A program made the position numbers and the translations under genes. A DNA stretch of 64,000 nucleotides from a virus. The notes beneath the pieces were generated by a model. It saw only the letters and a program-made list of their open reading frames with translations. It was not told where the DNA came from and did not search any database. This document shows, piece by piece, positions 55,543 to 55,893 of this stretch. The first letter of the stretch is position 1; the number at the start of each line of letters is the position of its first letter. The stretch lies in IMG/VR virus record IMGVR_UViG_3300027712_001108, positions 32,001 to 96,000 of that record; one strand, written 5' to 3'.

Positions 55543-55893
55543 CTGCCTATGCTATAGAATATGCGCCGAGCGTCAACTCTATCTAGGGAAGAAGCGCGAT
55601 GTATGTCATAGAAAACTTAAACTACCGCTTGAACTATAGAGCATATGTAGTATATAATATAATACTACCACATATTTGCATATGCCATAGATAAAGCAAA
55701 CAAACGGTGTTCAACACGATAGAGTGATCCCACTGAGGGGACAACATGGTGAGAACAATACTACTAGACTATTGCCGATGTTATAGAATGAGACGGTTGC
55801 AGATACCAGTTTCGTCATGATAAGGCAACACTAACCTGCTTAGACTATAGAATTTTTTGTTTACTACATCCAAAAAATCATAGTCAACGCAGC
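55543..55893 (+). ncRNA. repeat-hairpin RNA with four AGA/C internal-loop units
   Basis: YTAT-AGA-stem...stem-C-ATR at 55552, 55634, 55781 and 55845 with covarying stems. Confidence 0.65.

What the first reader, a model, noticed from the sequence alone, without database searches (positions are those of the whole stretch)
55543..55893. RNA with four covarying hairpins sharing an AGA/C internal loop
Seen: four units of YTAT-AGA-[7-8 bp stem]...[stem]-C-ATR. The stems differ in sequence but keep pairing (GCATATG/CATATGC; ATGAGAC/GTTTCGT; ATTTTTTG/CAAAAAAT; ATATGCG/TGTATGT). Three units also have a second small internal loop and an outer stem. The loop of unit 1 (ACTCTATC, 55576-83) is complementary to GATAGAGT (55718-25). 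Inference: a multivalent protein-sponge RNA (CsrB-like logic) of unknown target.
Basis: partly seen in the sequence, partly recalled or inferred. Interest (0 to 1): 0.72.

Follow-up and report, generated by a model that had tools for sequence, protein, structure and literature searches.

The report
Modular tandem-hairpin RNA in phage tRNA island
A large uncultured lake phage makes, between two of its tRNA genes, a roughly 370-base non-coding RNA built from five similar hairpins that all carry the same invariant small internal loop; related phages keep it, it matches no catalogued RNA family, and it most likely binds several copies of one still unknown partner.

Summary
The spacer 55538-55907, between tRNA-Val(UAC) and tRNA-Thr(UGU), contains five hairpin modules, not four. 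Each has the core YUAU-AGA-[7-8 bp]...[7-8 bp]-C-AUR, and most have an outer stem.

- The strict motif occurs four times here and nowhere else in the 158-kb phage record. Simulated genomes give a mean of 0.125 hits.
- Homologous RNAs with 5 to 8 modules lie directly 5' of tRNA-Thr in four independent lake-metagenome contigs.
- Across 22 modules, 92% of stem cells pair, against 70% in shuffles. The AUAGA and CAU letters are 100% conserved between orthologues, while stems (80%) and the remaining positions (73%) drift.
- 32 G-U pairs place the RNA on the + strand, the tRNA strand.
- Nothing in Rfam 15, GenBank phages, IMG/VR or 106 candidate-host genomes matches.
Its 3' partner is simply the conserved 5' half of the fifth module.

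The sponge reading is plausible but untested. Variable module number and variable apical parts around an invariant loop favour a multivalent binding platform (about 0.4). An RNA-only architecture like GOLLD or ROOL comes second (about 0.25). No partner protein was found.

The scan had not recorded this RNA on other DNA.

The parts
55463..55537 (+). tRNA-Val(UAC) with encoded CCA; its 3' end sets the likely 5' boundary of the RNA
   Evidence: ARAGORN; Rfam tRNA, 71.4 bits
55538..55907 (+). The whole ~370-nt non-coding RNA (inter-tRNA spacer), probably excised from the tRNA operon transcript
   Evidence: No repeated or conserved ORF. No Rfam match at E<=10. Alignable with L002, L005 and L010 at 74-81% identity, with compensatory changes
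55552..55611 (+). Module 1: P1 CUAU/AUAG, loop AGA/C, P2 AUAUGCG/UGUAUGU (three G-U pairs), conserved branched apical part GAGCG...GAAGCGC
   Evidence: model R1 39.6 bits
55627..55697 (+). Module 2: outer stem GCUU/AAGC, 3x3 loop, P1 CUAU/AUAG, AGA/C, P2 GCAUAUG/CAUAUGC, long A/U-rich apical part. This is the most conserved module; it is also recognisable in L003
   Evidence: R1 42.1 bits
55708..55757 (+).
   Evidence: R1 29.6 bits; outer-stem pair 55710/55755 changes U-A to C-G in relatives
55772..55828 (+). Module 4: outer stem UUGCC/GGCAA, P1 GUUAU/AUGAU, AGA/C, P2 AUGAGAC/GUUUCGU
   Evidence: R1 37.4 bits; pair 55791/55812 changes A-U to C-G in L002, L005 and L010
55836..55892 (+). Module 5: outer stem CUGC/GCAG, 3x3 loop, P1 GACUAU/AUAGUC, AGA/C, P2 AUUUUUUG/CAAAAAAU
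   Evidence: R1 38.6 bits; P2 almost entirely replaced in relatives with pairing kept at three positions
55908..55983 (+). tRNA-Thr(UGU). It follows the RNA directly in every locus found, and RNase P cleavage at its 5' end would define the RNA's 3' end (inferred)
   Evidence: ARAGORN; Rfam

Best explanation
The spacer is the gene for a new, modular, structured non-coding RNA of a small clade of large freshwater phages. It is transcribed with the tRNA island on the + strand. It is probably released as a ~370-nt molecule by the tRNA-processing enzymes that trim tRNA-Val on its 5' side and tRNA-Thr on its 3' side (inferred). It consists of five tandem hairpins (5 to 8 in relatives). Each hairpin is a stack of outer stem, variable internal loop, 4-6-bp stem, invariant loop (5'-AU-AGA-R / Y-C-AU-3') and a 7-8-bp stem with a free apical part. 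The invariant loop can also be drawn as a G-C pair flanked by two bulged adenosines. The most likely mode of action is as a multivalent platform: each invariant loop is one binding site for the same partner, most likely a phage or host RNA-binding protein. One RNA would then collect or sequester several copies, acting as a decoy, sponge or assembly scaffold. That the RNA is real and structured is shown (about 0.9). The multivalent-binding step is inferred from anatomy only.
For: Motif enrichment: 4 strict units in 330 nt against 0.125 expected in 2 x 158 kb. The unit covariance model R1 hits only this locus in the phage record. R1 gives no hit in about 18 Mb of five Rhodobacterales genomes, or in 101 genomes of that order. 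Covariation among 22 units: 92.2% of cells paired against 70.5% in shuffles, 59 cells with changes on both sides against 15.3, 0 of 500 shuffles as high, and slid controls at 21-48%. Orthologues aligned by sequence: of the stem pairs that changed, 35 stay paired (19 changed on both sides) and 10 are broken. The AUAGA and CAU letters are 80/80 identical, stems 80%, the rest 73%. Strand: 32 of 253 stem cells are G-U, so pairing drops from 92% to 79% on the opposite strand, and R1 hits only the + strand. Modularity: module number is 5 (window, L005), 6 (L002) and 7-8 (L003). Orthologous apical parts differ in length (7 vs 28 nt; 31 vs 38 nt) while the loop stays invariant. Context: the RNA always lies directly 5' of tRNA-Thr(UGU), on the tRNA strand. 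GOLLD lies about 4 kb downstream in both the window and L002.
Against: No partner was found: dsRBD, RNase III, TROVE, RtcB and CsrA are all absent from the held part of the phage, although only about 30% of the genome is held. The adjacent 236-aa protein has no family match and gave a poor model. It also occurs in contigs where no RNA unit was found; those contigs are short (L007, L009). Some linkers (AAAGCAAACAAAC, ACUACUAGAC) and some apical subdomains are conserved, which a pure array of independent sites does not require. Expression and processing were not measured. Only four independent lineages are available, three of them close to each other.
Confidence: 0.42

Rival explanations
1. RNA-only architecture. 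The RNA is a self-contained ornate RNA in the manner of GOLLD or ROOL. The repeated AGA/C loops would be structural modules (bulged adenosines making A-minor or stacking contacts, or defined bends) that pack the hairpins together or join copies of the RNA into an oligomer.
For: Same habitat as GOLLD and ROOL: phage tRNA islands (PMC5737381; bioRxiv 10.1101/2024.12.08.627333), with a GOLLD gene 4 kb away. Conserved single-stranded linkers and a possible long-range helix (GUUAA/UAAC). Conserved apical subdomains in modules 1 and 3. No protein partner found.
Against: Module number and order differ between relatives, and apical parts are freely resized, which is unusual for a compact fold. The long-range helix has a mismatch in the window. 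The only loop-to-distant-site pairing noticed is not conserved. No conserved GNRA-type loops were noticed that could dock into the modules (by eye, not scored).
Confidence: 0.25
2. Processing cassette. The hairpins are recognition sites for a ribonuclease (RNase III- or RNase E-like, or a phage enzyme). They would be cut to release small hairpin RNAs, or they would control maturation and dosage of the downstream tRNA-Thr.
For: Strict linkage to the 5' side of tRNA-Thr in all loci. Irregular hairpins with an asymmetric internal loop are classic phage RNase III signals (own knowledge of T7 early RNA, not tested). T4 also makes small RNAs of unknown role from its tRNA region (PMC3014915).
Against: Five to eight sites in a row with nothing between them to release. 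No RNase III gene in the held record. The invariant letters lie in a 3x1 loop only 4-6 bp from another loop, leaving less regular duplex than typical RNase III substrates have (inference). No antisense target of 14 nt or more for any product in the held 158 kb.
Confidence: 0.13
3. DNA-level element. The repeated CTATAGA words would be promoters (they resemble the -5..+3 part of SP6- or K11-type single-subunit polymerase promoters) or iterons of an origin or partition site, and the hairpins would be incidental.
For: ACACTATAGA-like words (own knowledge of the SP6 promoter). A sigma-70-like TTGAAC-18-TATAAT lies inside module 2.
Against: The bases 5' of the putative +1 G (CUAU) covary with the 3' AUAG (C-G 15, U-A 5), so they are part of the RNA. 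G-U pairs make the structure strand-specific. CTATAGA is only weakly over-represented in the window as a whole (12 against 6.75 expected; 3 of 100 shuffles reach 12), with three of the copies lying in this locus. No single-subunit RNA polymerase in the held record (weak test). Unit spacing is irregular (60-90 bp).
Confidence: 0.03
4. Chance similarity, or decayed tRNA or gene remnants without function.
For: The region lies in a tRNA array with mobile HNH genes, where debris could accumulate. The folding z-score alone is modest.
Against: Motif statistics, covariation, conservation of the loop letters at 100% across lineages whose flanking protein is only 64-84% identical, and no tRNA-like signal inside the spacer.
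Confidence: 0.02

Closest known systems
CsrB/RsmZ/RsmY-type protein-sponge sRNAs (Rfam RF00018 and relatives)
   Same: One RNA made of many hairpins that repeat one short invariant motif. The copy number varies between relatives, the stems are free to vary, and the logic is multivalent capture of one protein.
   Different: In those RNAs the motif is GGA in apical loops and the partner is CsrA/RsmA. Here the invariant letters form an internal loop (AUAGA / CAU) inside a three-tier stem. There is no Rfam match, no CsrA gene in the held record, the setting is a phage tRNA operon, and the partner is unknown.
GOLLD (RF02032) and ROOL (RF03087) large ornate phage RNAs
   Same: Structured non-coding RNAs of unknown function encoded in phages next to tRNA islands (PMC5737381; 10.1101/2024.12.08.627333). 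A GOLLD gene lies 4 kb downstream here and in L002.
   Different: No match to either model at E<=10. This RNA is smaller (370-560 nt). It is built from serial near-equivalent modules rather than one intricate pseudoknotted fold. Oligomerisation has not been tested.
Phage T4 RNA C and RNA D (small stable RNAs of the T4 tRNA region)
   Same: Non-tRNA RNAs transcribed from a phage tRNA cluster, presumably matured by the tRNA-processing machinery; function unknown (PMC3014915).
   Different: The T4 RNAs are shorter (own knowledge). The blastn search against 50,697 phage records matched only the flanking tRNAs. No repeated-module design is known for the T4 RNAs.
Type III antitoxin RNAs (ToxI-like repeat arrays) and RNA anti-CRISPR repeat mimics
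   Same: Phage- or plasmid-borne arrays of repeated RNA units that bind a protein stoichiometrically.
   Different: Those arrays are near-identical direct repeats of about 36 nt next to a toxin or Cas context. Here Tandem Repeats Finder finds nothing, units share only 46% column identity, and only the loop and the pairing are kept.
Tandem-hairpin ncRNA of another lake phage noted earlier in this scan (e1-5379252)
   Same: A chain of similar hairpins, each with the same internal loop, in a large lake phage; partner unknown.
   Different: Its loop is described as a two-fold symmetric 'UAA' loop. No shared sequence words with this RNA. Any relationship is untested.

Membership tests
CsrB/Rsm sponge RNAs | Many GGA motifs exposed in hairpin loops | tested here: not met
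   The conserved letters are AUAGA/CAU in an internal loop. GGA occurs once, in the apical part of module 1.
CsrB/Rsm sponge RNAs | Match to the Rfam covariance models | tested here: not met
   cmscan with permissive filters at E<=10 on the window locus, and at E<=5 on L002 and L003: no hit.
CsrB/Rsm sponge RNAs | Cognate CsrA/RsmA protein present | tested here: inconclusive
   No PF02599 match in the held 158 kb, but the record is about 30% complete and the host is unknown.
GOLLD (RF02032) | Match to the conserved 3' domain model | tested here: not met
   GOLLD matches 60012-60465, not this region. Nothing at E<=10 in 55400-56050.
ROOL (RF03087) | Match to the family model | tested here: not met
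   No hit at E<=10 (window) or E<=5 (L002, L003).
Type III antitoxin (ToxI-like) repeat RNA | Near-identical short direct repeats in tandem | tested here: not met
   Tandem Repeats Finder gives 0 arrays at score >=30. Unit alignment has 46% mean column identity.
Kink-turn (L7Ae-type site) | 3-nt bulge followed by tandem sheared G.A/A.G pairs | tested here: not met
   The short strand is Y-C-AU with no GA. Only type-B units have a single G.A.
Bulge-helix-bulge splice motif | Two 3-nt bulges on opposite strands, separated by 4 bp, with nothing opposite them | tested here: not met
   The 3-nt AGA lies on the 5' strand at the inner end of P1 and faces a C. The outer loop is about 3x3. P1 is 4-6 bp.
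tRNA or tRNA-like element | Cloverleaf detected by ARAGORN or the Rfam tRNA model | tested here: not met
   Only the two flanking tRNAs are detected.
Phage tRNA-operon small stable RNAs (T4 RNA C/D type) | Non-tRNA RNA lying between tRNA genes on the same strand | tested here: met
   Lies between tRNA-Val and tRNA-Thr, with all 31 tRNAs on +, and in the same position in relatives. This is a similarity of context only. The blastn search of the phage collection matched only the flanking tRNAs.
Phage tRNA-operon small stable RNAs (T4 RNA C/D type) | Accumulates as a processed stable RNA | not testable with these tools
   No expression data available.

The most novel reading that the evidence does not exclude
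A new class of phage RNA in which a chain of 5-8 hairpins, each displaying an invariant 'double bulged-A around a G-C pair' loop, captures multiple copies of a host RNA-binding or RNA-cutting protein, for example a tRNA-directed defence nuclease or a processing enzyme. It would be an RNA decoy that protects or regulates the phage's own tRNA supply. Alternatively, the chain could polymerise into an RNA-only assembly, as GOLLD and ROOL do.
Probability: 0.3. Interest if true: 0.85.

Novelty: new variant of a known kind. Interest (0 to 1): 0.62.

Why it matters
Large phages pack their tRNA islands with structured RNAs whose functions are all unknown (GOLLD, ROOL, T4 RNA C/D). This RNA has an unusually legible design: one invariant 3x1 loop repeated 5-8 times on covarying stems. 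That gives a direct experimental handle. A single 40-60-nt module can serve as bait for a pull-down, a loop point mutant gives the control, and the module count gives the expected stoichiometry. If the partner is a host defence or RNA-processing protein, this would be a new type of RNA-based counter-measure tied to phage tRNA supply. If there is no protein, it would add a modular member to the RNA-only assemblies recently seen for GOLLD and ROOL. It also supplies a new covariance model (unit model R1) for annotating freshwater phage metagenomes.

Tried and rejected
1. Rfam 15 at gathering and at permissive E-values, on the window locus and on L002 and L003: only the flanking tRNAs and noise.
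2. blastn ('distant') of the window, L002 and L003 versions against 50,697 GenBank phage records: only tRNA matches, or nothing.
3. Pattern scans for the conserved module 2 in IMG/VR, JGI metagenome contigs and GTDB genomes: 0 hits each.
4. Scans for the type-B core and for its GCGCGG...ACAGGCG subdomain in IMG/VR: 10 and 3 stretches, all chance. They scored weakly or not at all with R1, had no tRNAs nearby, and one lay in coding sequence.
5. The search for related loci with the neighbouring proteins and with the phage sigma factor. The single-protein queries and the metagenome scan with the protein alignment found no kin. The alignment query in IMG/VR found one distant relative (L006, 27% identity), which had no credible R1 unit (best 16.4 bits, E 0.48).
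6. Radical-SAM neighbour homologues (L025-L027) sit in other contexts without the RNA.
7. Structure prediction of the adjacent 236-aa protein: pLDDT 43, unusable. The protein atlas gives only a weak sulfotransferase-like lead.
8. Partner search in the phage record (dsRBD, RNase III, TROVE, RtcB, CsrA, T7-type RNA polymerase): nothing.
9. Host-mimic test: R1 against 5 plus 101 genomes of the candidate host order: nothing.
10. Antisense targets of 14 nt or more in the held genome: none.
11. Peptide-coding reading (repeated RiPP-like cores beside radical-SAM genes): no consistent ORFs.
13. Kink-turn, bulge-helix-bulge, tetraloop-receptor and hairpin-ribozyme loop A readings of the AGA/C loop were considered by inspection. 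They were rejected because the defining letters are absent.
14. Literature searches for the motif or for a described RNA of this kind found nothing.

Full report
**What the window is.** The window is bases 32001-96000 of a 157,923-bp IMG/VR virus record. The record is linear, CheckV rates it about 30% complete, and its GC content is 41.6%. The 33.9-63.5 kb part is a tRNA island with 31 tRNA genes, all on the + strand. It is interspersed with HNH endonuclease, methyltransferase and radical-SAM/SPASM genes and holds a GOLLD RNA at 60012-60465. The finding occupies the whole spacer between tRNA-Val(UAC), 55463-55537, and tRNA-Thr(UGU), 55908-55983.

**Checking the observation.** The four quoted units are present exactly as described.
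- A mechanical scan for TATAGA + 7 bp + loop + 7 bp + CAT (G-U allowed, 7 of 7 paired) finds these four and nothing else, on either strand of the window or of the whole record.
- Forty Markov-simulated genomes of the same size average 0.125 hits, with a maximum of 1.
- Relaxing the scan shows a fifth unit at about 55708-55757. Its core is GAU-AGA-G...A-C-AUGG, with a G.A in place of the first stem pair and 5 of 7 stem positions paired.
- Outer stems (P0) and a second, variable internal loop exist in units 2-5.
- The energy z-score of the whole spacer is modest (-2.9 on +, -1.4 on -). The case rests on the motif and on comparative data.

**Relatives.** The RNA has no DNA-level match in GenBank phages and no Rfam match.
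- Homologues of the downstream 236-aa ORF in the 5.8-billion-protein collection led to metagenome contigs. Those that carry the RNA are L002 (a 30.6-kb ENA contig), L005 (JGI), L003 with its duplicate L004 (ENA and Logan), and L010 (ENA, a partial copy).
- L002 has six units in the same place, and L005 has five.
- L003 has seven, plus a weak eighth. There the RNA lies after the 236-aa gene, but still directly 5' of tRNA-Thr.
- L010 has the 3' three units and then tRNA-Thr.
- The one constant neighbour is therefore tRNA-Thr.
- L002 also keeps GOLLD about 3.9 kb downstream.
- Homologues of the neighbouring proteins in other contexts (L007, L009, L025-L027) carry no units.

**Structure.** An alignment of 22 units (A4) was tested with the structure P1 (4 bp), AGA/C, P2 (7 bp).
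- 92.2% of cells pair, against 70.5% in shuffles.
- 59 cells changed on both sides, against 15.3 in shuffles, and 0 of 500 shuffles reach the observed values.
- Only 21-48% pair when partners are slid by 1-3 columns.
- Every P2 position covaries, and P1 covaries at two positions (C-G/U-A and U-A/U-G/G-C).
- Units were picked partly by their pairing, so an unbiased check used sequence-aligned orthologues (window, L002, L005, L010). Of the stem pairs that changed, 35 remain paired (19 changed on both sides) and 10 are broken. Identity to the window is 100% (80/80) for the AUAGA and CAU letters, 80% for the other stem positions and 73% for the rest.
- RNAalifold on three full-length sequences recovers the five hairpins with their outer stems.
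- 32 of 253 stem cells are G-U, so the pairing is specific to the + strand.
- The unit covariance model R1 scores 29-42 bits on all five window units. It scores nothing else in the phage record, and nothing in five and then 101 genomes of Rhodobacterales.

**The consensus module.** The module reads 5'-ACUA-YYGC-(2-4 nt)-N(0-2)YU-AU-AGA-R-Y-R...Y-R-Y-C-AU-RR-(1-4 nt)-GCAR-ACA-3'.
- The invariant loop can be drawn in two ways: as a 3x1 loop (AGA/C), or as a G-C pair flanked by two bulged adenosines.
- The position after AGA is A-U, G-C or, in 'type B' units, G.A.
- Type-B units also keep a G.G inside P1.
- In relatives, type-B units carry a conserved apical subdomain (GCGCGG-hairpin-ACAGGCG) that the window's unit 3 has lost.

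ACTCTATC (55576-83) and GATAGAGT (55718-25) are complementary in this sequence. However, GATAGAGT is the invariant 5' half of unit 3. The loop partner is replaced in L002 and L005, where the best 8-mer match is 5 of 8. An 8-nt match somewhere within 370 nt is about what chance gives. It is rejected as a conserved feature.

**What it is not.**
- Not coding: no repeated or conserved ORF.
- Not a tandem direct repeat.
- Not tRNA-like.
- Not GOLLD, ROOL, CsrB or any other Rfam family.
- Not a kink-turn, a bulge-helix-bulge or an 11-nt receptor, by inspection of the defining letters.
- Not a promoter array. CTATAGA resembles the start region of SP6-type promoters, but the CUAU upstream of the G covaries with the 3' AUAG, the structure is strand-specific, the word is only weakly over-represented in the window as a whole, and no single-subunit polymerase is in the held record.
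- No antisense target of 14 nt or more exists in the held genome.

**How it most likely works.**
- Shown: a conserved, + strand, modular hairpin RNA embedded in a tRNA operon.
- Inferred: it is released by the tRNA-processing enzymes, with 3' trimming of tRNA-Val and RNase P cleavage at tRNA-Thr.
- The function must be read from the anatomy. One invariant small loop sits on freely covarying stems. It is repeated 5-8 times. Copy number and apical parts are free to change between close relatives. That is the signature of repeated binding sites for one ligand, as in CsrB-type sponges, so a multivalent protein-binding platform (decoy or scaffold) is my first choice, at about 0.4.
- No partner could be named. 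The held third of the genome has no dsRBD, RNase III, TROVE, RtcB or CsrA gene. The adjacent 236-aa protein is unassigned. The module does not mimic any element detectable in candidate-host genomes.
- Second choice, about 0.25: an RNA-only architecture in which the bulged adenosines mediate packing or oligomerisation. GOLLD and ROOL, the other tRNA-island RNAs of phages, form RNA-only cages (10.1101/2024.12.08.627333), and some linkers and apical subdomains here are conserved.
- Third choice, about 0.13: a ribonuclease-processing cassette tied to tRNA-Thr.

**Comparison and novelty.**
- In logic it is closest to CsrB/Rsm sponges.
- In habitat it is closest to GOLLD, ROOL and T4 RNA C/D. [quoted passage not shown]
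- It fails every membership test that could be run for those families, so it is a new RNA family.
- I rate it a new variant of a known kind (phage tRNA-island structured RNAs and multi-site hairpin RNAs), not categorically new, because no new mechanism has been shown.
- Its known range is narrow: one IMG/VR record and four lake-metagenome lineages. None was found in IMG/VR at large, in GTDB genomes or in GenBank phages with the searches possible here.
No sequence link to it was found.

Noticed in passing
window 55015-55461; L002 5278-5438; L005 1042-1200: The HNH endonuclease gene between tRNA-Ala and tRNA-Val is present only in the window. In L002 and L005 the two tRNAs are under 10 nt apart, so the HNH gene looks like a recent mobile insertion into the tRNA array.
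   Followed up: partly
L003 3578-3694; L002 2246-2372 and 3339-3461: Relatives carry tRNA genes that match the tRNA model end to end but are 117-127 nt long. They hold inserts of about 45-55 nt, which is too short for group I introns; the one in L003 is the tRNA-Thr that follows the RNA.
   Followed up: no
window 60012-60465; L002 9785-10238: A GOLLD RNA (217 bits) with an embedded tRNA-Arg(TCT)-like element lies about 4 kb downstream of the hairpin RNA, in the same synteny in both phages.
   Followed up: partly
window 50146-51135: The phage PstS phosphate-binding protein is 74% identical to that of an uncultured Rhodobacterales MAG, and 54-63% identical to those of many Paracoccaceae and Rhodobacteraceae. 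This points to a candidate host order, despite the phage's much lower GC content (41.6%).
   Followed up: partly
window 55629-55658: A sigma-70-like TTGAAC-18-TATAAT (10 of 12) lies inside module 2. It is kept in L005 but not in L003. It is probably a by-product of the A/U-rich apical hairpin, but an internal promoter for tRNA-Thr is not excluded.
   Followed up: no
window 56005-56715: The 236-aa ORF next to the RNA has no Pfam or PHROG family, folds poorly (pLDDT 43) and has an N-terminal PGHFGTW motif. Protein-atlas neighbours hint weakly at a sulfotransferase-like fold. Its stop codon lies inside tRNA-Pro (56706-56782).
   Followed up: partly
window 672-17518 and 56809-57978: The phage carries an unusually large number of radical-SAM/SPASM genes: at least five of the large ORFs tested, plus the one by the RNA. 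It also has an RpoD-like sigma factor (17656-19119).
   Followed up: no
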